A stretch of 41,192 bases of DNA from Gaiellales bacterium. Its GTDB lineage: Bacteria > Actinomycetota > Thermoleophilia > Gaiellales > JAICJC01. This document shows positions 355-27,880 of the stretch, piece after piece. The translations under genes and the position numbers were made by a program. The DNA lies in assembly GCA_035537595.1 (NCBI GenBank), contig DATLLX010000083.1, positions 1 to 41,192 of the forward strand, in the 5' to 3' direction. A model generated the notes under the pieces. The model saw only the letters and a list, made by a program, of their open reading frames with translations. It ran no database searches and had not been told where the DNA came from. Every line of letters begins with the position of its first letter. Position 1 is the stretch's first letter.

Positions 355-1404
355 GCGCCTGACCAGCTTGGCGACCATCAGCGCCGCCGCGCGCGGCTTG
401 AGGTCGTTGTGGAACAGGCCGAAGCCTCCCGATCCCTCGTCGATCAGCTGGTACAGGATCAGCGCGGCGACGTACGGATAGGCGCGGGCGATGTGGACGA
501 TGGCCCGCCGCTCGAAACCGGCCACCTGGTTGGGCGAGTGGTGGACGCCGACCGGATAGCCGAACTCGGTCAGCCACAGCTTCTTGGAGGCGTCGTCGTT
601 TCGCACCATCAACGCCCTCAGAGCGGGGATGTCGTTCACGATCGCCGATCCGTTCGCCGTGGCATCGCCATGGGCGTAGGGGTGGAACCCGATGCCGTCG
701 AAGCTCTTTCGCGCGCCGGCGGCGTACAGCGACCTGACGAACCGGGCTGCGGGCATCACGCCCGGCTTCCTGCTGCGGGCCAGGCCGCCGACGATCACGG
801 TGCCGGACGGGTCGGCCGGCCGGATCGCCCGCGAGCAGGCGTCGAGCAGCGCCGCGTAGCGGCGCACCTGAACCGGCCCGCCCCAGCCGAAGTTGGCATT
901 CTCCTCGTTCCAGACCTCGTAGACGATGCTCTGACCGTGGTAGCGGGCGGCCAGGTCGCCGCAGAACGCGGCCAGGTCGGGCAGCCGGTCGGGCGGCGCG
1001 CTCAGCCCGGCTCCGCCGTTGGCCCACCGGGGCGTGCCGTGGATGGCCAGGATCAGGCGGACGCCTCGGCGTCTGGCCTCGGCCACCATCTCGTCGAGCT
1101 GCTCCCAGTTGTGGAATCCACGGTCGCGCTCGACCGCGGCCCAGAGGGCGTCGATCCGCAGCATCCGCAGGTGGAGCCTGCCGAGCGCGTCGAACGACCG
1201 CTTCAGCCCGTGGCGCTCGACGACCCAGGGGTGTGAGGCCGCGCCGAGGGCGAGCGCAGGGCGCGGCGGTCTCGCCGGAGTGTCGGTGAGGCTCTCGGCG
1301 GATCCACCCGGCATGGCGGAGGAGATGATCGCGCCGACCGCCACCGCGGCGCCGATGGCGACAACGATCGCGCTAGCTCGAGCTATTCGCTTCCCGGCTC
1401 TCAC
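328..1404 (-). CDS. membrane-anchored clan GH-A glycoside hydrolase (GH5/GH39-like)
   Basis: GTG start at 1404 with a GGAGG RBS (complement of 1411-1415) 6 nt upstream. N-terminal TM anchor AIVVAIGAAVAVGAIISS. Acid/base motif EVWNEEN and nucleophile motif LWLTEFG. The longer 450-aa track ORF would run into the Kelch gene and is not used. Confidence 0.7.
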   Translation of the reverse strand: MRAGKRIARASAIVVAIGAAVAVGAIISSAMPGGSAESLTDTPARPPRPALALGAASHPWVVERHGLKRSFDALGRLHLRMLRIDALWAAVERDRGFHNWEQLDEMVAEARRRGVRLILAIHGTPRWANGGAGLSAPPDRLPDLAAFCGDLAARYHGQSIVYEVWNEENANFGWGGPVQVRRYAALLDACSRAIRPADPSGTVIVGGLARSRKPGVMPAARFVRSLYAAGARKSFDGIGFHPYAHGDATANGSAIVNDIPALRALMVRNDDASKKLWLTEFGYPVGVHHSPNQVAGFERRAIVHIARAYPYVAALILYQLIDEGSGGFGLFHNDLKPRAAALMVAKLVRRSDGGVLRP

Positions 1405-1494
1405 AGCCCACCTCCATCGACTCCAGGGTACAGGTGTTTTCGGCCATTTGGCACTGGCCGGGTGGGGGCGGTTGCCGGGGTGCCGAAGCGCTCG

Positions 1495-1500
1495 TACGCT
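1495..1500 (+). promoter_or_regulatory. candidate -10 hexamer TACGCT, 7 nt upstream of the Kelch gene ATG (leaderless geometry)
   Basis: TANNNT hexamer with no Shine-Dalgarno between it and the ATG at 1508. The same hexamer occurs upstream of cmk. Confidence 0.3.
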
Positions 1501-1507
1501 CGACGGG

Positions 1508-3481
1508 ATGGGCTCATTTCCCTCCCCGCGCCGCGGCCTGGCCGCCGCCTTCCTCGTGGTCTGCTTGGCGATCGGCGCCGGGGTGCCCGCGGCCCAGGCC
1601 GATGAGGGGACGTGGGCCACCGCCGCCAAGGTCTTGCCGCGGTTCGGGCTCGCGGCGGCGACGGCGGGGGACGGATCCATCTACGCGGTCGGCGGCGTGT
1701 CGGGGGTGAGCACCCTCAGCGACGCGCAGGTCTACGACCCGGCCGCGAAGGCGTGGGCGGCGCTGCCGTCGATGGCGCACGCCCGCTTCGGCGCGGCGGC
1801 CGCCGCCTCCGGTAACACCGTCTACGTGCTCGGCGGCAGCAACTCCGATGCCGGGTCGAGCCCCGACGAGGGCACGCTGGCCCTGGTCGAGAAGATCACC
1901 GGACCAGGCGGCGCCTGGGCTGCGTCGGCTCCGATGAGCAGTCGCCGCTACGGACTCGGCGCCGCCACCGATGCGCAGGGCCGGATCTACGCGGTGGGTG
2001 GCAACAACGGCAGCGTCGCCCTGAAGTCGGTCGAGCGCTATGACCCAGGTGCCGGCACCTGGACGTCGGTGGCTTCGATGACAACGGTGCGGGAATGGCC
2101 GGCGGTAGCCACCGGCAAGGACGGCCGCATCTACGCGATGAGCGGCAACGACGCCACCGGGCCGCTGGCCAGCGCCGAGGTGTACGACCCGGCCGCGAAC
2201 AGCTGGACGCCGATCGCGGCGATGGCAACCGCCCGCACGGCGGCCTCGGCGGCCCTCGCCCCGGACGGCCGGATCGTGGTCGCCGGCGGCACGGCGGCGG
2301 ACGGCAGCTTCCTGGCCACGGCGGAGGCCTACAACCCGACCACCAACACCTGGACGGCGGTCACGCCGATGCCCCGGCAGCGCGCCTACGGCGCCTCGGC
2401 ACAGGCTCCCGGCGGCCGGATCTTCGTGATCGGCGGCTCCACCGGGTCGGGAACGCTGGGCGCGGTCGACTCCCTGCAGCTGGTGGACACCACCAAGCCG
2501 GTGCTGAGCTCGGTCACGATCGACAACGGCAGCGCGTCCACGGCCGACGCGACGGCGACCGTCAAGCTGGTCGCCACCGATTCGCCCAGCGGGCCGGCGC
2601 TGATGCGGGTCTCGAGCAAGCCGCCGGTCAACTGCGCGACCGGCTGCCAGATGTCGCCGACGTTCACTCGCCAGAGCGCCTACAGCCCGTCGTTCACCTG
2701 GGACCTGACCGACCCCACCTGGGGCGGCGTTGCCGGTGACGGCACCAAGCAGGTGTGGGTGCAGGTGGTTGACGCTGCAGGCAACGCATCGGCGATCAGG
2801 GGCGACACGATCATGCTCGACAACACGACCCCTAGCATCGAGAGCGGTCCCGACACCCGGCTTAAGGCCGGTGGCACGCTGCAGCCGGGCACCGCACCGG
2901 TGGAAGCGTCGTGGACGGGGGCCGACGCCACCGGCGGCGTCACCCGCTACGGCGTCGAGTGGCACAACGGCGCCGAGAGCTTCTCGGCCGTGACCCGGTC
3001 GAATCCCGCCTCCTCCACCCTGCTGCGGCAGTATCCGCGCGGCTGCTCCTGCTCGCTTCGCGTGAACGCCGAGGATGCCGCCGGCCACGTCAGCCCGTGG
3101 GCGGTGGGCCCGGCGTTCGTGCCCACGGTGGTGCAGGAGCGCTGGTCGCTGGTCGTCTACCGGGGCCAGTGGACGGTCGCCACGAGCACCCGTCACGACG
3201 GCGGCCGCGACCGCTACGCGGCCGCGGCCGGCGCCTCCGCCCGCTTCGACTTCACCGGCCGGGGGATCGCCTGGGTCGCGCCGATGGGCTCCACCCGCGG
3301 CAAGGCCGATGTCTACCTCGACGGCGTCAAGGCCGCCACCGTCTCGCTCTCCGCAAGCTCTTCCCGCTACCGCCGTCTGGTCTTCGCCCGCAACTGGCCG
3401 GAGGCCGGCGCCCACCGCATCACGATCCGCACCACCAGCTCCAAGCGCGTCGACCTCGACGCCTTCGTCATCCTCAGCTGA
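1508..3481 (+). CDS. secreted Kelch-repeat (beta-propeller) protein with C-terminal Ig-like/carbohydrate-binding-like modules
   Basis: ATG at 1508. Signal peptide MGSFPSPRRGLAAAFLVVCLAIGAGVPAAQA/DE, where the RR may indicate Tat export. About six repeats of the type G.IYA.GG...........VE.YDP..N.W. The C-terminal roughly 330 aa is rich in beta-strand-like segments (VKLVATDSPSG, QVWVQVVDAAGNAS, RITIRTTSSKRVDLDAFVILS). Confidence 0.8.
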   Translation: MGSFPSPRRGLAAAFLVVCLAIGAGVPAAQADEGTWATAAKVLPRFGLAAATAGDGSIYAVGGVSGVSTLSDAQVYDPAAKAWAALPSMAHARFGAAAAASGNTVYVLGGSNSDAGSSPDEGTLALVEKITGPGGAWAASAPMSSRRYGLGAATDAQGRIYAVGGNNGSVALKSVERYDPGAGTWTSVASMTTVREWPAVATGKDGRIYAMSGNDATGPLASAEVYDPAANSWTPIAAMATARTAASAALAPDGRIVVAGGTAADGSFLATAEAYNPTTNTWTAVTPMPRQRAYGASAQAPGGRIFVIGGSTGSGTLGAVDSLQLVDTTKPVLSSVTIDNGSASTADATATVKLVATDSPSGPALMRVSSKPPVNCATGCQMSPTFTRQSAYSPSFTWDLTDPTWGGVAGDGTKQVWVQVVDAAGNASAIRGDTIMLDNTTPSIESGPDTRLKAGGTLQPGTAPVEASWTGADATGGVTRYGVEWHNGAESFSAVTRSNPASSTLLRQYPRGCSCSLRVNAEDAAGHVSPWAVGPAFVPTVVQERWSLVVYRGQWTVATSTRHDGGRDRYAAAAGASARFDFTGRGIAWVAPMGSTRGKADVYLDGVKAATVSLSASSSRYRRLVFARNWPEAGAHRITIRTTSSKRVDLDAFVILS

Positions 3482-7307: not shown

Positions 7308-8601
7308 TCCGGCCGAGCTGCTGGTGCGCCCGGCGGGAGCGCTGGTCGGCGAGCTGACCGTGCCCGGCGACAAGTCGATCAGCCACCGGGCGGTGATGGT
7401 CGGCGCGCTGAGCGAGGAGCGGGTGGTGGTCACCGGGTTCGGCGCGTCGGCGGACACCCTGGCCACGGTCGACGCGTTCCGCCGCCTGGGCGTCGAGATC
7501 GAGCGGCCCGATTCCGAGACGCTGGTCATCCATGGCGTCGGCATGCGCGGGCTGCAGCCGCCCGACCGGCCGATCGACGTGGGCAACGCCGGCACCCTGA
7601 TGCGCATCCTGCCGGGGATCCTCGCCGGCCAGTCGGGAACCTTCGTCGTGGACGGCGACGACAGCATCCGCAGCCGGCCGATGGAGCGGATCGCGACGCC
7701 GCTCTCCGAGATGGGCGTGCGCGTCGAGACCACGTCGGGAACGCCGCCGGTGACCGTCCACGCCACCGGCGAGGTGCGACCGGTGTCCTACCGGCTGCCG
7801 GTGGCCTCGGCCCAGGTCAAGTCGGCCGTGCTGTTCGCCGGGCTGTTCACCGAGGTCGGCGTGACCACCGTGGAGGAGCCGATCCCCACCCGCGACCACA
7901 CCGAGCGGATGCTGCAGCGGGCCGGCGTGCCGGTCGACAGGCGACCCGGCAGGGTGTCGGTCTCGCCTGTGCGGGAGCTCGTCATCCCCGAGATCCCGGT
8001 GCCCGGCGACTTCTCCTCGGCCGCCCCGTTCATCGCCGCGGCGACGGTGCTGCAGGGCTCCAACCTGACCCTGCGCGGCATCGACATCAATCCCACCCGC
8101 ACCGGCATGCTGACGGTGCTGGAGAGGATGGGCGCCCGGGTGGGCCTGTTCGGCAGACGGTGGGCGGCCGGCGAGCCGGTGGCCGACATCGAGGTGCGGG
8201 CCGCGGAGCTGGTGGCCACCGAGGTCGAGCCCGAGCTCGTCCCCAGCCTGATCGACGAGCTGCCGCTGGTAGTGCTGGCGGCCAGCTTCGCCCGCGGCAC
8301 CACGGTGATCCGCGGTGCCGGCGAGCTGCGGGTGAAGGAGTCCGACCGGATCGAGAGCGTCGTCCGCGCCATGACCACCGTCGGCGCCCACGTCCGGGCG
8401 TTGGAGGACGGCTTCGAGGTCAAGGGCGTGCCCCATCGCCTGCGCGGCGGCCGGGTGGACGCCGCCGGCGACCACCGGATCGCGATGCTGGGCGCCATCG
8501 CCGGAGCCTGCTCGCAGCAGGGCGTCACCGTCGAGGGCGCCGAGGTGGTCGGCGTCAGCTTCCCCGACTTCGCCGAGCGGCTGGCCGCGGTCAGCGCGTA
8601 G
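7300..8601 (+). CDS. aroA: 3-phosphoshikimate 1-carboxyvinyltransferase (EPSP synthase)
   Basis: ATG 7300 overlaps the tyrA stop by 8 nt. Motifs LTVPGDKSISHRAVM, VGNAGTLMRIL, RVKESDRI and GDHRIAM are present. Confidence 0.95.
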   Translation: MTDPAELLVRPAGALVGELTVPGDKSISHRAVMVGALSEERVVVTGFGASADTLATVDAFRRLGVEIERPDSETLVIHGVGMRGLQPPDRPIDVGNAGTLMRILPGILAGQSGTFVVDGDDSIRSRPMERIATPLSEMGVRVETTSGTPPVTVHATGEVRPVSYRLPVASAQVKSAVLFAGLFTEVGVTTVEEPIPTRDHTERMLQRAGVPVDRRPGRVSVSPVRELVIPEIPVPGDFSSAAPFIAAATVLQGSNLTLRGIDINPTRTGMLTVLERMGARVGLFGRRWAAGEPVADIEVRAAELVATEVEPELVPSLIDELPLVVLAASFARGTTVIRGAGELRVKESDRIESVVRAMTTVGAHVRALEDGFEVKGVPHRLRGGRVDAAGDHRIAMLGAIAGACSQQGVTVEGAEVVGVSFPDFAERLAAVSA

Positions 8602-8607
8602 GGCGGC

Positions 8608-8699
8608 GGCCATTTGGCCGAGCGATCGTCGGCCATTTGGCCGGGTGGTCGTTGGCCATCTGGCCGAGCCGACGCCCGTCATTTGGCCGCCGGTAGGAT
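8608..8699. repeat. tandem array of four 23-bp units (GGCCATTTGGCCGAGCGATCGTC / GGCCATTTGGCCGGGTGGTCGTT / GGCCATCTGGCCGAGCCGACGCC / CGTCATTTGGCCGCCGG...)
   Basis: Units start at 8608, 8631, 8654 and 8677, in an exact 23-nt register. Each carries the inverted-repeat core GGCCA-TT-TGGCC. The array fills the gap between the aroA stop and the RBS (AGGA 8695-8698) of the next gene. Confidence 0.85.
8615..8638 (+). terminator. possible weak terminator hairpin after aroA (UGGCCGA-gcgaucg-UCGGCCA followed by UUU)
   Basis: A 7-bp stem (8615-8621 paired with 8629-8635), a 7-nt loop, then TTT at 8636-8638. It is formed by adjacent repeat units. The U-tract is short. Confidence 0.25.
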
Positions 8700-8705
8700 G
8701 GCGCC

Positions 8706-9392
8706 ATGATCGGCGTCATCGGCGACCACGATCCGGCGAACCGCACGCACGCCACGCTGGACGAGAGCCTGGCCGCCGCCGGAGCGGAGTGGCAGTGGGT
8801 GGCGACCGATGCCGTCCCGCCGGCGGACGAGCTGGAGCGGCGGTTCGGCGGGCTGTGGATCGCCCCGGCCAGCCCGTACCGCAGCATGGACGGCGCCCTC
8901 GGTGCGATCACGGCGGCCCGCGAGCGCGGGATCCCGCTGGTCGGTACCTGAGGCGGCTTCCAGCACGTACTGGTCGAGTACGCACGCAACGTCATGGGAG
9001 TCACGGAGGCCGAGCACGCGGAGACGAGCCCCGACGCGGCGGAGCTGGTCGTCTCGTCGCTGTCCTGCTCCCTGGTCGGGCATCAAGCAACGGTGCGGCT
9101 GCTGCCGGGCACGAAGGCCGCGGCCCTGTACGGCGCCGACCGCGCGGACGAGGACTACTTCTGCAACTACGGCCTGAACCCGGAGTACCGGCCGCGTCTG
9201 GAGGCCGTGGGGCTGCGTGTGAGCGGTGTCGACGACGACGGCGAGGTGCGGGTGGTCGAGCTCGACAGCCATCCGTTCTACGTCGCGACCCTCTACTGCT
9301 TCCAGACCCGGTCGCTCAGCGGACGGCCCCACCCGCTGGTCGCCGGGTTCGTCGCGGCGGCCTCGGCTGGTAAAGTCTCAACGCACGGTTGA
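8706..9392 (+). CDS. class I glutamine-amidotransferase-like protein (CTP synthase C-terminal-domain-related), probable selenoprotein with Sec encoded by TGA 8949-8951
   Basis: Track ORFs 8706..8951 and 8994..9392 are in the same frame, separated only by one TGA. Read through, the sequence ...ARERGIPLVGT-U-GGFQHVLVEYARNV... aligns with the PyrG GATase nucleophile segment [23 protein letters not shown]. The TGA therefore sits exactly at the catalytic Cys. The C-terminus HPFYVATLYCFQ...HPLVAGFVAAA matches HPWFVACQFHPEF...HPLFAGFVKAA. Confidence 0.7.
8966..8982 (+). promoter_or_regulatory. SECIS-like hairpin (CGUACU-GGUCG-AGUACG) downstream of the in-frame UGA
   Basis: A 6-bp stem with an apical loop GGUCG starting 21 nt after the UGA. 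The GGUC apical loop and the distance are like the E. coli fdhF SECIS upper stem-loop as I recall it. The stem is short. Confidence 0.4.
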
Positions 9393-9435
9393 GGGTTAAA
9401 CTTCGGCGGGCTGCCTCGATCAGCACTTGAGGGTT
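9389..9435 (+). repeat. direct repeat TTGAGGGTT x2 (9389-9397 and 9427-9435)
   Basis: Exact 9-mers 38 nt apart. The first overlaps the stop codon of the GATase-like gene and the second lies upstream of cmk. Confidence 0.6.
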
Positions 9436-9443
9436 CGGCCCAG

Positions 9444-9449
9444 TACGCT
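9444..9449 (+). promoter_or_regulatory. candidate -10 hexamer TACGCT, 9 nt upstream of the cmk ATG
   Basis: The sequence reads CAGTACGCTtcgcccgccATG with no SD. The hexamer is identical to that at 1495-1500. Confidence 0.25.
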
Positions 9450-9458
9450 TCGCCCGCC

Positions 9459-10034
9459 ATGGTGATCACGATCGACGGTCCCGCCGGGTCGGGCAAGAGC
9501 ACGGTCGCTCGGCTGGTCGCCGACCGGCTGGGCCTGCGCTACGTGGACACGGGCGCGATGTACCGCGAGCTCACCGCTGCCGCCCTGGCCACGGGCGTCT
9601 CACTGAACGACGGCGATCAGCTGGCGGCGCTGGTCGGACGGCCGGCGCCCCCCGGCGCCGACCTGCGGGCGGAGGTGATCTCCCGCAACGTCAGCGCCGC
9701 CTCCCGGCACCCGCAGGTGCGAGCGCGGATGCGGGCTCGCCAGCGCGAGCTGGCATCCGACGCAGTCCTGGAGGGGCGGGACACCGGCTCGGTGGTCTGG
9801 CCGGCGGCGGAGGTCAAGGTGTACCTGGTGGCGAACGGGCGGGTGCGCGCCGAGCGGCGGGCGGTGCAGCTGGGGCTGCCGATCGAGGCGGTGGAGCAGA
9901 CGATCGCCGACCGCGACGACATGGACAGCGCTCAGCTGGCGCCGGCCCCGGACGCCGTGGTGGTCGACACCAGCGACCTCACCATCGACCAGGTGGTCGA
10001 CCGGATCGTCGACATGGCCCGGGCCGCCGCATGA
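9459..10034 (+). CDS. cmk: (d)CMP kinase
   Basis: P-loop ITIDGPAGSGKST followed by YVDTGAMYR. Length is 191 aa. Confidence 0.92.
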   Translation: MVITIDGPAGSGKSTVARLVADRLGLRYVDTGAMYRELTAAALATGVSLNDGDQLAALVGRPAPPGADLRAEVISRNVSAASRHPQVRARMRARQRELASDAVLEGRDTGSVVWPAAEVKVYLVANGRVRAERRAVQLGLPIEAVEQTIADRDDMDSAQLAPAPDAVVVDTSDLTIDQVVDRIVDMARAAA

Positions 10035-25034: not shown

Positions 25035-25418
25035 ATGGCGAACGCGCCGCTCAGGGCCGTGCCGGCCGAAGTCGCCGCCCAGGTGGACGGTGGGCTGACG
25101 ATTCCGAACGAGGTGATCGCGCAGATCGTCGGGTTCACCGTGCTCGAGTGCTACGGGGTGGTGGGGATGGCGGCGACCAACCTGACGCAGGGTGTCGCCC
25201 GGCTGCTGTCGCGGGAGCGGATCACCCAGGGTGTGTCGGTGCGCCGTGAGGGCGATGCGCTGGCGATCGAGCTGTACGTGATCCTCGAGTTCGGCCTGAA
25301 CCTGGCGGAGGTTGCGTCGAACGTCCGCACCCGGGTGATCTACAACGTGGAGAAGATGACCCGGATGACGGTAGGTTCGGTGCAGATCCACGTGCAAGGC
25401 GTGAAGCGGACTTCATGA
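25035..25418 (+). CDS. Asp23/Gls24 (alkaline shock protein) family protein
   Basis: Length is 127 aa. The segments IPNEVIAQIVGFTVLECYGVVGM and VQIHVQGV are typical of Asp23/YloU. The position upstream of a yloV-type gene is as in Firmicutes. Confidence 0.85.
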   Translation: MANAPLRAVPAEVAAQVDGGLTIPNEVIAQIVGFTVLECYGVVGMAATNLTQGVARLLSRERITQGVSVRREGDALAIELYVILEFGLNLAEVASNVRTRVIYNVEKMTRMTVGSVQIHVQGVKRTS

Positions 25419-27880
25419 CCACACCGGCGCAGATCGCCCGGGCCCTCGCCGAGGGCGGCCGCGCCGCGCTCGAGGCAAACCGCCAGCGGCTGAACGACCT
25501 CAACGTCTATCCGGTGCCCGACGGCGATACCGGAACCAATCTGGCCGAGTCGGTGGCGGCGCTGGCCGACGCACTGGCCGACCCTTCCCTGGCCGATGCC
25601 GACCGGGCGGGAGTCGCCCACGCGGCGAAGCAGGCCGCACTGATGGGAGCCCGCGGCAACAGCGGCGTGATCCTCAGCCAGATCGTGCGCGGGCTGGCCG
25701 AGGCGCTGGCGGCCACCGAGGGCGAGCTGGGGCCGGCGGACGCCGCGGCGGCGCTCCGCGAGGCCGCCACCCGGGCGTACTGCGCCGTCCGCCAGCCGGT
25801 CGAAGGGACGATGCTGACCGCGATCCGCGAGATGGCCGAGGAGGCCGAGCGGATGCCGCCGGACGGCGAGCTGGCGCCCATGCTCGACGCGGTTGTCCGA
25901 GCTGGGGAGGCCACGGTGGAGCGGACGCCGGACATGCTCGAGGTTCTGCGCCGCAGCGGTGTGGTCGACGCCGGCGCCGCCGGGCTGGTCGAGCTGACCC
26001 GGGGAGCCGTCGCCGGGCTGCGGGGCGAGGAGGCCGGACCCGCTGGGCCGGCTGTCGCCAGGCCGGTGACCATCGGCACCCACCACCAGGAGGACTCGCC
26101 GTTTCGGTACTGCACCACCTACCTGGTGGAGGGGCCCGGGGTGGACGCCGACGCCCTTGCGGCGCAGCTCGAACCGCTCGGGGATTCGCTGCACGTCGTC
26201 GGCGAGTCACCGATGTTCAAGGTGCACATCCATACGGACGACCCCGGCGCCGCGTTGTCGCTGGCGGTCGCCGTCGGGTCCGTCGACCGGATCGAGATCG
26301 CCGACATGCACCGGCAGACCGCCGAGCGCGCGCGGCGGCTGTCGCTGGTGCGCGACCACCAGGCCACCGGGGTGGTGGCCGTGGTGGCCGGCAAGGGCAA
26401 CGAGGCCGCCTACCGCGAGGCCGGCGCCCAGGGGCTGGTGGCCGGCGGCCAGTCGATGAACCCGTCGGCCGGCGAGATCGTGGCGGCGATCGAGGCGGTG
26501 GACGCCGACGGCGTGCTGGTGCTGCCGAACAACGCCAACGTGATCCTGGCGGCCGAACATGCCGCGGCCGCGGCCGGCCGGCCGGCCCGGGTCGTGCCCA
26601 CCCGGTCGGTCGCTGCCGGCCTGCTGCTGCTCGGGCACGTCGACCCGGGCCTGCCGCTGGATGTCAACGCCGACCTGCTGGCCGCCCGCAACGGCGCCGT
26701 CCGCCACGGCGAGGTGACAGCCGCTGTGCGCGACTCCCAGGCCGACGGCGTGGCCGTCCGCAAGGGCCAGCACATCGCGCTGATCGACGGTCAGGTGGCG
26801 GGCGCCTACACCACCCCGGAGGATGCCGCCGCCGCGCTGATCGACGGCCTGGGGGCCACGGCCGACCGGCTGCTGCTGGTGACTGGGGAGGCCGGCGAGC
26901 TGGCAACCGGCGGCTGGCTTGAGGCTGTCCGGGCCCGCCACCGGGGGGTGGCCATCGAGCTGCGTGACGGAGGCCAGCCGCTGTACCCGCTGGTGGCGGC
27001 GGCGGAGGGCCGGCAGCTGCTGACGGCCGAGAACACGGCGCTCGTGCTCGATTCGACCGCCGACCTGGCCGATCCCCGGTCTCTGCACGCCAACTGGCGG
27101 ATGGTGCCGCTCTCGGTCCGCTTCGGCGACAGTGAGCTGCTCGACTTCATCGAGCTCTCGCCGGACGAGTTCTATCGGCGGTTGGAGACCGCGGTCGATC
27201 ACCCGACCACCGCCGCGCCCTCGCCGGGCGCCTACCAGGCCGCGTTCGAGGAGCTGTCCGGCTACGGTCGGATCCTGGTGCTGCCGGTCTCCTCCCGGGT
27301 CTCGGCCAGTGCCGGATCGGCCGAGCTCGCAGCTCGCGCGATCGACCCCGACGGCCGGCGGATCAGCGTGCTCGACGGCCGGTCGGTGTCGGGCGCCACG
27401 CTGCTTCTGGCCGACGGCCTGCAGCGGCTGCTCGTCCGCGGTGTGCCGGAGAATCAGCTGATGACGTGGTTCGAGCAGGCCCGTGACCGGCTCTCGCTGG
27501 TGTTCTCGGTGGAGACGCTCGAATACCTGCGGCGGGGTGGGCGGATCGGCCGGGCGAAGGCGGTGATCGGCGGTCTGCTGCGCGTGCGCCCGCTGCTCAC
27601 GCTGAGCGACGGGGAGGTGGTGGCGCACGGGTCGGTGCGCGGCCGGGGCGCGGTGCTGCCCGCTTTCGAGCGGTTCCTGGGCGAGCGGCTGGCCGCCGCG
27701 GATCATGCCCGGATCGCGGTCGTGCATGCCCGCGACGAGGCCCGGGCCGGCGAGCTGTGCGAGCTGCTCGCTCGTGACTGGCCGCGCTGCTCGGTCGACC
27801 ACGTCGTCGAACTGGGCGCGGTGGTGGGCACCCACGGCGGCCCGGGCACCCTGGGCATGGCCGTGCTCCCGGGCGAATGA
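25415..27880 (+). CDS. fusion protein: DAK2-domain FakA/YloV-like kinase module (aa 1 to about 535) + DegV/FakB-like fatty-acid-binding module (aa about 538-821)
   Basis: The N-terminus has LNVYPVPDGDTGTNL and ARGNSGVILSQ (DhaL/DAK2). The middle resembles the YloV C-terminal region. From about nt 27026 the sequence TALVLDSTADL...VPLSVRFG...PTTAAPSPG...LEYLRRGGRIGRAKA matches the DegV family. There is a single uninterrupted ORF of 821 aa. Confidence 0.85.
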   Translation: MTTPAQIARALAEGGRAALEANRQRLNDLNVYPVPDGDTGTNLAESVAALADALADPSLADADRAGVAHAAKQAALMGARGNSGVILSQIVRGLAEALAATEGELGPADAAAALREAATRAYCAVRQPVEGTMLTAIREMAEEAERMPPDGELAPMLDAVVRAGEATVERTPDMLEVLRRSGVVDAGAAGLVELTRGAVAGLRGEEAGPAGPAVARPVTIGTHHQEDSPFRYCTTYLVEGPGVDADALAAQLEPLGDSLHVVGESPMFKVHIHTDDPGAALSLAVAVGSVDRIEIADMHRQTAERARRLSLVRDHQATGVVAVVAGKGNEAAYREAGAQGLVAGGQSMNPSAGEIVAAIEAVDADGVLVLPNNANVILAAEHAAAAAGRPARVVPTRSVAAGLLLLGHVDPGLPLDVNADLLAARNGAVRHGEVTAAVRDSQADGVAVRKGQHIALIDGQVAGAYTTPEDAAAALIDGLGATADRLLLVTGEAGELATGGWLEAVRARHRGVAIELRDGGQPLYPLVAAAEGRQLLTAENTALVLDSTADLADPRSLHANWRMVPLSVRFGDSELLDFIELSPDEFYRRLETAVDHPTTAAPSPGAYQAAFEELSGYGRILVLPVSSRVSASAGSAELAARAIDPDGRRISVLDGRSVSGATLLLADGLQRLLVRGVPENQLMTWFEQARDRLSLVFSVETLEYLRRGGRIGRAKAVIGGLLRVRPLLTLSDGEVVAHGSVRGRGAVLPAFERFLGERLAAADHARIAVVHARDEARAGELCELLARDWPRCSVDHVVELGAVVGTHGGPGTLGMAVLPGE

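What the first reader, a model, noticed from the sequence alone, without database searches (positions are those of the whole stretch)
8706..9392. In-frame TGA at the catalytic-cysteine position of a GATase-like gene: probable selenoprotein
Two track ORFs (8706-8951 and 8994-9392) share one reading frame and are separated only by TGA 8949-8951.

Translating through gives a 228-residue protein that is collinear with the glutaminase domain of CTP synthase. GIPLVGT-[TGA]-GGFQHVLVEYARNV aligns with [21 protein letters not shown], so the stop codon falls on the nucleophile Cys column. A TGA at a redox- or nucleophile-Cys column is the classic signature of selenocysteine recoding.

A hairpin (8966-8982) with a GGUCG apical loop follows 21 nt after the UGA. 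This is comparable in position and loop sequence to the E. coli fdhF SECIS as I remember it.

Standard gene callers would split this gene or call it a pseudogene. I recall a curated family named roughly 'CTP synthase C-terminal region-related (seleno)protein', whose function is unknown. That recollection needs checking.
Basis: partly seen in the sequence, partly recalled or inferred. Interest (0 to 1): 0.75.

Follow-up and report, generated by a model that had tools for sequence, protein, structure and literature searches.

The report
Known-family selenoprotein gene, split by UGA
This is one intact gene for a small enzyme-like protein in which a UGA "stop" codon almost certainly encodes selenocysteine at the active-site position; it belongs to a family already catalogued as a predicted selenoprotein, so it is a sound but not new finding.

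Summary
Window 8706-9392 (+) is one reading frame with a single in-frame TGA at 8949-8951. It encodes a 228-residue protein.

[quoted passage not shown] The TGA sits on the nucleophile Cys column of the CTP synthase glutaminase domain.

- **Not an error or a pseudogene.** The same split is seen on dozens of independent public contigs.
- **TGA conserved elsewhere.** It is kept in relatives of 66-71% identity and in at least 116 species genomes from many phyla.
- **Downstream half is translated.** It is under the same purifying selection as the upstream half (dN/dS about 0.25).
- **Standard genetic code.** TGA is the normal stop codon in this genome (20 of 27 genes).
- **SECIS-type hairpin.** A 6-bp hairpin with a GGUCG loop (8966-8982) lies in the register used by other TGA forms. 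Such hairpins occur in 80/115 TGA forms and 2/117 Cys forms.

Two things remain open. The selenocysteine machinery could not be checked, and the hairpin is not discriminating within this clade.

The family was already reported as a predicted selenoprotein in 2025-2026. This is therefore a new member, from a Gaiellales actinobacterium, of a known kind. Its biochemical function is unknown, and the canonical His and Glu of the amidotransferase triad are missing.

The parts
8706..9392 (+). Complete gene for a 228-residue selenoprotein of family NF004836. It is a stand-alone domain resembling the C-terminal (glutaminase) domain of CTP synthase. The range includes the terminal TGA at 9390-9392.
   Evidence: The frame has a single internal TGA. 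NF004836.1 scores 291 bits against a cut-off of 260. CTP synthase structures match at E = 7e-25. dN/dS against other TGA forms is about 0.25 on both sides of the TGA.
8695..8698 (+). AGGA, a likely ribosome-binding site 7 nt upstream of the ATG at 8706.
   Evidence: Read directly from the sequence. This is an inference and was not tested.
8949..8951 (+). In-frame UGA read as selenocysteine (U82), in the motif G-T-U-G-G-F-Q-H at the nucleophile position.
   Evidence: It aligns with Cys in homologues and in CTP synthase. TGA is at the same codon in L001, L002, L003 and in 116 species genomes. TGA is otherwise the normal stop codon here, in 20 of 27 genes.
8966..8982 (+). SECIS-type hairpin inside the coding sequence (codons 87-93). 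The stem is CGUACU/AGUACG (6 bp) and the apical loop is GGUCG at 8972-8976. It is the presumed SelB binding site.
   Evidence: It folds at -7.1 kcal/mol. The stretch including the rare GTA Val codon is identical in L003, which is only 66% identical as protein. The same register is used by 23 other TGA forms, with 4 of 6 pairs showing compensatory changes. At family level, 80/115 TGA forms have such a hairpin against 2/117 Cys forms.
8994..9392 (+). The 132-aa 'ORF' that gene callers report. It is an artefact of splitting the gene at the UGA, not a separate gene.
   Evidence: The ATG at 8994 (M97) is not conserved. Relatives have L, I or V there, and L003 has GTT. The 14 codons between the UGA and this ATG are the most conserved motif of the family.

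Best explanation
Window 8706-9392 is a single functional gene of a Gaiellales (Actinomycetota) bacterium. It encodes a 228-residue selenoprotein of the NF004836 family.

Translation (inferred). When the ribosome reaches UGA 8949-8951, the hairpin 14 nt downstream (8966-8982, loop GGUCG) recruits SelB carrying GTP and Sec-tRNA(Sec). Selenocysteine is inserted instead of termination, and translation continues to the TGA at 9390-9392. That the downstream half is translated, and that the UGA is conserved at a Cys column, is shown here. That the inserted residue is Sec, delivered by SelB, is inferred.

Protein. It has the fold of the CTP synthase glutaminase domain, with Sec in the nucleophile elbow (G-T-U-G-G-F-Q-H).

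- It has no synthetase domain.
- In all TGA forms, the canonical triad His and Glu are replaced: C198/Q200 in this protein, and x-P-Q in the others.
- Two further Cys (C121, C153) and E106, R182 and E185 are near-invariant.

I infer that it uses the selenol as a nucleophilic or redox centre in chemistry that is probably not classical glutamine hydrolysis. The substrate is unknown.
For: Membership and position
- NF004836.1 scores 291.2 bits against a cut-off of 260, over the full length.
- The TGA aligns with the nucleophile Cys of homologues and of CTP synthase structures.
- The protein is 33% identical over its full length, with U aligned to U, to the published predicted selenoprotein of Desulfosediminicola ganghwensis.

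Reality of the TGA
- An exact N-terminal fragment is on 47 contigs and an exact C-terminal fragment is on 28 contigs, from NCBI, JGI, ENA and Logan.
- The same split is seen in the loci read from JGI and ENA assemblies and from a Gaiellales MAG, GCA_045806545.1.

Conservation of the TGA
- L003 (66% identical), L096 (a Gaiellaceae MAG, 71%) and L010 (a Thermoleophilia MAG, 70%) all have TGA at this codon.
- 116 of 120 genome hits to the motif with TGA are true family members, mostly with about 140-155 open codons after the TGA.

Translation of the downstream part
- dN/dS downstream is 0.24-0.28 against 0.23-0.33 upstream, measured against the three TGA forms.

Site-specific recoding
- TGA ends 20 of 27 genes in the window.

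SECIS
- MFE of positions +12 to +42 is -9.75 kcal/mol in TGA forms and -5.54 in Cys forms (Mann-Whitney p = 2e-26).
- Excess stability over synonymous-codon shuffles is z = -1.63 against -0.41 (p = 1e-18).
- A stem of at least 6 bp at this position occurs in 80/115 TGA forms and 2/117 Cys forms.
- In the window's register, 99.3% of cells are paired and 4 of 6 pairs have compensatory changes.

Sec/Cys interleaving, typical of real selenoproteins
- Window(U)-L004(C) 75%, L096(U)-L006(C) 86%, L096(U)-L010(U) 87%.
Against: - No selA, selB, selD or tRNA-Sec gene is in the 41-kb window or within 10 kb on either side. The rest of the genome could not be searched.
- I found no literature on selenocysteine use in Gaiellales.
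- For the window alone the hairpin is no more stable than its amino-acid sequence would give (z = -0.79, p = 0.24).
- The closest Cys forms have equally stable hairpins: L004 -7.1 and L006 -8.3 kcal/mol. Within this clade the hairpin therefore does not separate Sec from Cys.
- No Rfam family matches.
- The register-50 covariation set was chosen by its register, which is partly circular.
- The TGA set came from genomes and the Cys set from metagenomes.
- No member of the family has experimental proof of selenium incorporation. The papers read here present it as a computational prediction still to be verified.
Confidence: 0.87

Rival explanations
1. Pseudogene. A nonsense mutation (TGC or TGT to TGA) killed a Cys-type gene, and only the 81-residue N-terminal stub, or nothing, is made.
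For: TGA is one substitution from TGC or TGT. Close relatives with TGC exist (L004-L006). Public gene calls show two fragments.
Against: - The downstream 142-144 codons are under purifying selection equal to the upstream part (dN/dS 0.24-0.28).
- There is no frameshift or second stop in the window, in L001-L003, or in most of the 116 other TGA forms.
- TGA at exactly this codon recurs across many phyla. Independent inactivation would not produce that pattern.
Confidence: 0.03
2. Sequencing or assembly error at 8951. The true codon is TGC or TGT.
For: A single-base difference would be enough.
Against: Exact fragments ending and restarting around the TGA are on 47 and 28 contigs from four independent sources. 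L001, L002, L003, L248, L249 and L250 all carry the split or the TGA.
Confidence: 0.01
3. UGA is decoded, but not as selenocysteine. This would be context-dependent read-through by a near-cognate tRNA (Trp, Cys, Arg or Gly) or by a suppressor tRNA, helped by the downstream hairpin.
For: The selenocysteine machinery was not found in the DNA available. The comparative evidence shows that the downstream part is translated, not which residue is inserted. Cys would be functional at this column.
Against: - TGA is the normal terminator in this genome (20 of 27 genes).
- TGA alternating with Cys at a catalytic column, with a nearby hairpin carrying G-U in the apical loop, is the established signature of bacterial Sec decoding. 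This is general knowledge and matches the criteria described in PMC13188914.
- The family's TGA forms occur among lineages reported as Sec users, such as Desulfobacterota.
- Low-efficiency read-through would be a poor way to make an enzyme, yet the TGA is kept by selection in more than 100 species.
Confidence: 0.06
4. A split gene that makes two polypeptides: residues 1-81, and residues 97-228 re-initiated at ATG 8994. The two would assemble into one domain.
For: Both pieces are open and an ATG follows 42 nt after the TGA.
Against: - The restart codon is not conserved. Relatives have L, I or V, and L003 has GTT.
- The 14 codons that would be lost (GGFQHVLVEYARNV) are the most conserved block of the family.
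- Those codons are kept in frame in all the TGA forms read.
- The nucleophile itself would be missing.
Confidence: 0.03

Closest known systems
[quoted passage not shown] Its published example is the predicted 'glutamine amidotransferase (COG0504, PyrG)' selenoprotein of Desulfosediminicola ganghwensis (Xiao & Zhang 2025, PMC12013277; listed with motif GxUxG in PMC13188914).
   Same: Same family by the curated HMM (291 vs 260 bits). Same length and architecture. U is at the same column in the motif GTU(G/S)GFQH. Identity is 33% over the full length. The downstream block ALVEY/VLVEY that carries the hairpin is also shared.
   Different: The phylum differs: Actinomycetota, order Gaiellales, against Desulfobacterota. 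The hairpin register and loop may also differ. Two main registers are used among the TGA forms, plus an interrupted-stem type in Rokubacteria-like sequences. Neither protein has experimental support.
Glutaminase (class I amidotransferase) domain of CTP synthase PyrG, for example PDB 3nva, 1vcm, 1s1m.
   Same: Sequence is collinear over about 180 residues (E = 7e-25). The nucleophile sits in the same elbow (G-x-C-x-G). The C-terminal HP..(A/G)F motif is shared.
   Different: There is no N-terminal synthetase domain. PyrG models score far below their cut-offs (TIGR00337 102 vs 463; NF003792 105 vs 308). The Pfam GATase model is just below its threshold (21.7 vs 22.8). The triad His-Pro-Glu of PyrG is C-F-Q here and x-P-Q in all TGA forms. 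Sec replaces Cys.
Bacterial SECIS elements, typified by E. coli fdhF.
   Same: A stem-loop lies inside the coding sequence just 3' of the UGA. The apical loop contains G-U about 20 nt from the UGA.
   Different: The stem is short (6 bp) and has no evident bulged U. The resemblance to fdhF is from memory and was not tested. No Rfam model matched. SelB binding is inferred.

Membership tests
[quoted passage not shown] | Whole-protein HMM score above the curated cut-off, with full-length coverage. | tested here: met
   291.2 bits against a cut-off of 260. Residues 2-219 match profile positions 3-227 of 228, with Cys written at the TGA.
[quoted passage not shown] | Cys or Sec in the GxUxG motif (G-T-U/C-G-G-F-Q-H). 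| tested here: met
   The window reads GT-TGA-GGFQH. Homologues read GTCGGFQH. The published member reads GTUSGFQH.
Bacterial selenoprotein gene (Sec decoding of UGA) | In-frame UGA aligned with Cys in homologues (a Cys/Sec pair). | tested here: met
   Sec and Cys forms are interleaved at 75-86% identity.
Bacterial selenoprotein gene (Sec decoding of UGA) | UGA conserved in orthologues of other species, with an intact and selected downstream ORF. | tested here: met
   116 of 120 genome hits are family members with TGA at this codon. dN/dS downstream is 0.24-0.28.
Bacterial selenoprotein gene (Sec decoding of UGA) | SECIS stem-loop immediately downstream of the UGA, with G/U in the apical loop at the usual distance. 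| tested here: met
   The hairpin is at 8966-8982 with loop GGUCG, 20 nt after the UGA. At family level: 80/115 against 2/117, MFE p = 2e-26, and compensatory pairs. Caveat: for the window alone z = -0.79, and Cys relatives in this clade keep the same hairpin.
Bacterial selenoprotein gene (Sec decoding of UGA) | selA, selB, selC (tRNA-Sec) and selD present in the genome. | not testable with these tools
   None is in the window or in the 10-kb flanks.
Bacterial selenoprotein gene (Sec decoding of UGA) | Selenium shown in the protein (75Se labelling or mass spectrometry). | not testable with these tools
   This needs an experiment. The papers read here present the family only as a computational prediction still to be verified.
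Class I glutamine amidotransferase (Cys-His-Glu triad) | Nucleophile Cys in the elbow after a beta strand. | tested here: met
   The nucleophile is present as Sec and aligns with the CTP synthase nucleophile.
Class I glutamine amidotransferase (Cys-His-Glu triad) | Catalytic His and Glu (the H-P-E motif of PyrG). | tested here: not met
   The window has C198-F199-Q200. TGA forms have L/Q/V-P-Q. Most sampled Cys forms have Q-P-E or Q-H-E.
Class I glutamine amidotransferase (Cys-His-Glu triad) | Pfam PF00117 GATase gathering score. | tested here: not met
   21.7 bits against a threshold of 22.8, over residues 44-108 only.
CTP synthase PyrG | Full-length enzyme with an N-terminal synthetase domain, scoring above the equivalog cut-off. 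| tested here: not met
   TIGR00337 scores 102.5 against 462.75 and NF003792 scores 104.7 against 308. Only the C-terminal third of each profile is matched. Public labels of 'CTP synthase' for these genes are misleading.

The most novel reading that the evidence does not exclude
The family may not be a glutaminase at all. It could be a widespread selenium-dependent enzyme with new chemistry: an amidotransferase fold that has lost the His/Glu of the triad and keeps Sec82 together with two invariant Cys (C121, C153), for example as a selenenyl-sulfide redox or metal-binding centre.

TGA forms occur in at least 116 species, mainly uncultured and apparently soil or groundwater lineages by their record titles: Rokubacteria, Acidobacteriota, Chloroflexota, Dormibacterota, Gaiellales and Acidimicrobiia. 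That would make it one of the more common uncharacterised selenoproteins in those lineages.

A side effect is that the SECIS lies inside the most conserved protein block. It forces amino acids 88 and 92 to co-vary (V/M/T/A with Y/H/C/F) for RNA pairing rather than for protein function.
Probability: 0.3. Interest if true: 0.55.

Novelty: new member of a known kind. Interest (0 to 1): 0.3.

Why it matters
For annotation: the gene should be called as one 228-residue selenoprotein. In public collections it currently appears in three wrong forms.
- As two fragments.
- As a protein with 'W' at the active site.
- Labelled 'CTP synthase'.

For biology: it adds an actinobacterial (Gaiellales) member to a selenoprotein family that so far is only predicted. 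It implies that this lineage decodes selenocysteine.

The comparative data gathered here give concrete starting points for the first biochemical study of the family:
- wide distribution of the TGA form;
- a coding-sequence SECIS kept by compensatory codon changes;
- loss of the canonical His and Glu.

It does not open a new kind of system.

Tried and rejected
- **Rfam.** There was no hit at gathering thresholds over the whole window, and none at E up to 10 over 8900-9060. Bacterial SECIS elements are too small for these models, so this says nothing either way.
- **Selenocysteine machinery.**
  - ARAGORN found no tRNA in the window.
  - NCBIfam scans of 30 window ORFs found no SelA, SelB or SelD. 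The only selB hit was the generic GTPase domain of Der, 37 bits against 242.
  - There was no tRNA-Sec in 118 loci.
  - The 10-kb flanks beyond both window ends hold only housekeeping and cell-envelope genes.
- **Literature on Sec use in Thermoleophilia or Gaiellales.** Nothing relevant was found. One paper id was not held.
- **Conserved gene neighbourhood as a clue to function.** The aroA-gene-cmk arrangement is confined to this organism. No neighbour family is shared widely across 234 loci.
- **Annotated relatives.** There was no match in E. coli genomes. Plasmid and chromid relatives are labelled only 'CTP synthase' or left unannotated.
- **Other in-frame TGA genes in the window.** A crude scan gave one hit, antisense to fmt, which I rejected. 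The scan's thresholds also missed the target itself, so it is not informative.
- **Promoter and terminator scan of 8450-9550.** Nothing was found.
- **Structure prediction.** I did not run it, because the tool returns no coordinates. The proximity of U82, C121 and C153 could not have been measured.

Full report
**1. What is in the sequence**

Window 8706-9392 (+) translates as one frame of 229 codons. It has a single internal stop, TGA 8949-8951, and a terminal TGA at 9390-9392. The two mechanical ORFs, 8706-8951 and 8994-9392, lie in that frame.

An AGGA sits 7 nt before the ATG at 8706. The N-terminus MIGVIGD matches the consensus of homologues.

The window has 73% G+C. The frame has the expected codon-position G+C pattern on both sides of the TGA.

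**2. Which family**

[quoted passage not shown] The curated cut-off is 260, and the match covers the whole profile.

True CTP synthase models match only with their C-terminal third and score far below their cut-offs. The Pfam GATase model is just below its threshold.

Against solved structures the best matches are CTP synthases (3nva, E = 7e-25). The TGA aligns with their nucleophile Cys. Full-length homologues in the large protein collection read GT-C-GGFQH at this place.

**3. Already in the literature**

- It credits the deep-Sep paper, PMC12013277, which predicted the protein in Desulfosediminicola ganghwensis and noted TGA and Cys homologues elsewhere.
- The published sequence (GTUSGFQHALVEY...) is 33% identical to the window protein over its full length, with U aligned to the window's TGA.
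- These papers present the protein as a computational prediction that still needs verification.

**4. Not an error and not a pseudogene**

The exact 81-residue N-terminal fragment is on 47 public contigs. The exact 132-residue C-terminal fragment is on 28. They come from NCBI, JGI, ENA and Logan.

The loci read from JGI and ENA assemblies and from a Gaiellales MAG (GCA_045806545.1) show the same split.

Three JGI proteins show 'W' at the position (P0004, P0126, P0133). For the one whose DNA was read (P0004, locus L003), the codon is TGA, so the 'W' is a translation-table artefact.

L003 is only 66% identical as protein, yet it has TGA at the same codon. So do the nearest species genomes, L096 (a Gaiellaceae MAG, 71%) and L010 (a Thermoleophilia MAG, 70%).

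Between the window and these three, dN/dS is 0.24-0.28 downstream of the TGA and 0.23-0.33 upstream. The downstream 142-144 codons are therefore translated and selected.

TGA is the ordinary terminator of 20 of 27 genes in the window. The genetic code is standard and the recoding must be site-specific.

**5. Distribution of the TGA form**

I scanned one genome per species for GSN ACN TGA GGN GGN TTY CAR CAY.

Of these, 116 are true family members with TGA at the Cys column, mostly with about 140-155 open codons after it.

By record title they come from:
- Rokubacteria/Methylomirabilota
- Acidobacteriota
- Chloroflexota
- Dormibacterota
- Acidimicrobiia
- Thermoleophilia/Gaiellales
- Deltaproteobacteria
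- Bacillota
- Eisenbacteria
- Entotheonella

.

Sec and Cys forms are interleaved in the window's own clade: window(U)-L004(C) 75%, L096(U)-L006(C) 86%, L096(U)-L010(U) 87%. This is the usual pattern for real Cys/Sec pairs.

**6. The hairpin**

In the window the stem is CGUACU (8966-8971) paired with AGUACG (8977-8982). The loop is GGUCG (8972-8976). The hairpin folds at -7.1 kcal/mol.

The stretch from ACC-TGA to 8984, including a GTA Val codon that I take to be rare at this G+C content, is identical in L003. The flanks of L003 carry many synonymous changes.

For a family-level test I fetched 118 Cys forms by the same motif with TGY.

| Measure | TGA forms | Cys forms |
|---|---|---|
| MFE of +12..+42 (kcal/mol) | -9.75 | -5.54 |
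| z against synonymous-codon shuffles | -1.63 | -0.41 |
| Uninterrupted stem of 6 bp or more at this position | 80/115 | 2/117 |

The MFE difference has Mann-Whitney p = 2e-26. The z-score difference has p = 1e-18.

The hairpins use two main registers:
- i+j = 48, for example CAUACUCU-GUU-AGAGUAUG.
- i+j = 50, which is the window's register.

Rokubacteria-type sequences form a third, interrupted-stem class.

All of these hairpins place G-U in the apical loop about 23-25 nt from the U of UGA.

In the window's register, 25 sequences are 99.3% paired. Four of six pairs show changes on both sides: GC/AU, GC/GU/AU, CG/GC and UA/CG. None of 500 shuffles reached the observed values for paired cells, cells changed on both sides, or the covariation score.

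Several of these changes are non-synonymous. Residues 88 and 92 therefore co-vary (V/M/T with Y/H/C) to keep the RNA paired.

**7. Caveats on the hairpin**

- For the window alone, the hairpin is not significantly more stable than shuffles that keep its protein sequence (z = -0.79, p = 0.24). The peptide H-V-L-V-E-Y-A itself encodes most of the stem.
- The clade's Cys forms L004, L005 and L006 have equally good hairpins: -7.1, -6.3 and -8.3 kcal/mol. These could be fossil SECIS elements after recent Sec-to-Cys switches, or a pre-existing hairpin that eased a gain of Sec. Either way the hairpin does not discriminate within this clade.
- The register-50 set was chosen by register, so its percentage paired is partly circular.
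- The two sets come from different collections.
- The invariance of residues 81-87 is forced by the search pattern. It is supported independently only.

**8. Machinery**

No tRNA was found in the window. None of 30 window ORFs is SelA, SelB or SelD.

The window is a housekeeping stretch. In order it carries:
- trpS, DAHP synthase, tyrA, aroA
- the selenoprotein gene
- cmk, plsC, der, gpsA, metK, priA, def, fmt, rsmB, rpe
- ribD, ribBA, yloV-degV, recG, coaD, plsX, rnc, smc

Ten kb beyond each end adds cell-envelope genes on one side and ftsY, ffh, rpsP, rimM, trmD and rplS on the other.

The rest of the genome could not be reached. This defining feature stays untested. I infer the machinery exists, because otherwise selection could not maintain the downstream half.

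**9. Organism**

The nearest named relative of the window's cmk is from a 'Gaiellales bacterium' MAG. The nearest TGA forms are from Gaiellaceae and Thermoleophilia MAGs. One contig carrying the same genes belongs to GCA_045806545.1.

**10. How the protein may work**

It is a stand-alone domain with the fold of the PyrG glutaminase domain, with Sec in the nucleophile elbow.

The PyrG triad motif H-P-E aligns with C198-F199-Q200 in the window, and with L/Q/V-P-Q in all TGA forms. Most sampled Cys forms have Q-P-E or Q-H-E. The canonical His is therefore absent, and in the Sec forms the Glu is absent too.

Near-invariant residues outside the forced motif are H15, R72, E91, E106, C121, C153, R182 and E185.

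I infer a selenol-based nucleophilic or redox function that is probably not classical glutamine hydrolysis. This is the weakest step of the account.

Gene neighbourhood gives no clue. The position next to cmk is peculiar to this organism.

**11. Verdict**

The gene is a new, actinobacterial member of a selenoprotein family that is already curated and published as a prediction. Interest is modest.

What remains open is the proof of selenium incorporation, the machinery in this lineage, and the function of the family.

Noticed in passing
window 8601-8689: The intergenic region between the aroA stop and the selenoprotein gene holds an array of palindromic GGCCATYTGGCC motifs at exact 23-nt spacing. 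There are three exact copies at 8608, 8631 and 8654, and a degenerate fourth at about 8677. The window has 7 matches with up to 1 mismatch, against 0.8 expected. This could be an operator array for a dimeric regulator or a small repeat element. It is absent upstream of the L003 orthologue.
   Followed up: partly
P0004 (= L003:847-1527), P0126, P0133: Public JGI protein calls for this gene carry 'W' at the active-site position. For P0004 the DNA was read and has TGA there, so the 'W' reflects translation with a TGA=Trp table. P0126 and P0133 show the same 'W' but their DNA was not read. Such entries hide selenoproteins and look like inactive enzymes.
   Followed up: yes
L004:95-766, L005:824-1504, L006:1469-2152: The Cys-encoding close relatives (TGC) keep a hairpin as stable as that of the TGA forms at the same codons, at -6.3 to -8.3 kcal/mol. 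L006(C) is 86% identical to L096(U). This suggests recent Sec/Cys switching with fossil or pre-adapted SECIS elements.
   Followed up: partly
L008-L127, positions +15 to +35 after the TGA: In the TGA forms, amino acids 88 and 92 co-vary because their codons pair in the SECIS stem: GUG/CAC, AUG/CAU, GUA/UAC, ACA/UGU, ACU/UAU. In one case a synonymous GAG-to-GAA change compensates for GUU (L020). This is protein-level covariation driven by RNA structure.
   Followed up: partly
window 25415-27880 (+): A single 821-residue ORF joins a DAK2/YloV (FakA-like) part, residues 12-530, to a DegV (FakB-like) part, residues 542-817. It appears to be a fusion of the two fatty-acid-kinase components.
   Followed up: no
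plasmid and chromid hits H5-H9 (Methylobacter, Klebsiella): Cys-type relatives of about 41-42% identity on Klebsiella and Methylobacter plasmids are annotated simply as 'CTP synthase', although they are only about 220 residues long. JGI uses the same misleading label.
   Followed up: no
window 944-3481 (+) versus L248:11312-13285: The large ORF upstream of trpS has Kelch/beta-propeller repeats, with weak hits to GlxA and mutarotase models. Public gene calls for the same DNA give a 657-residue Kelch protein. Its function is unknown.
   Followed up: no
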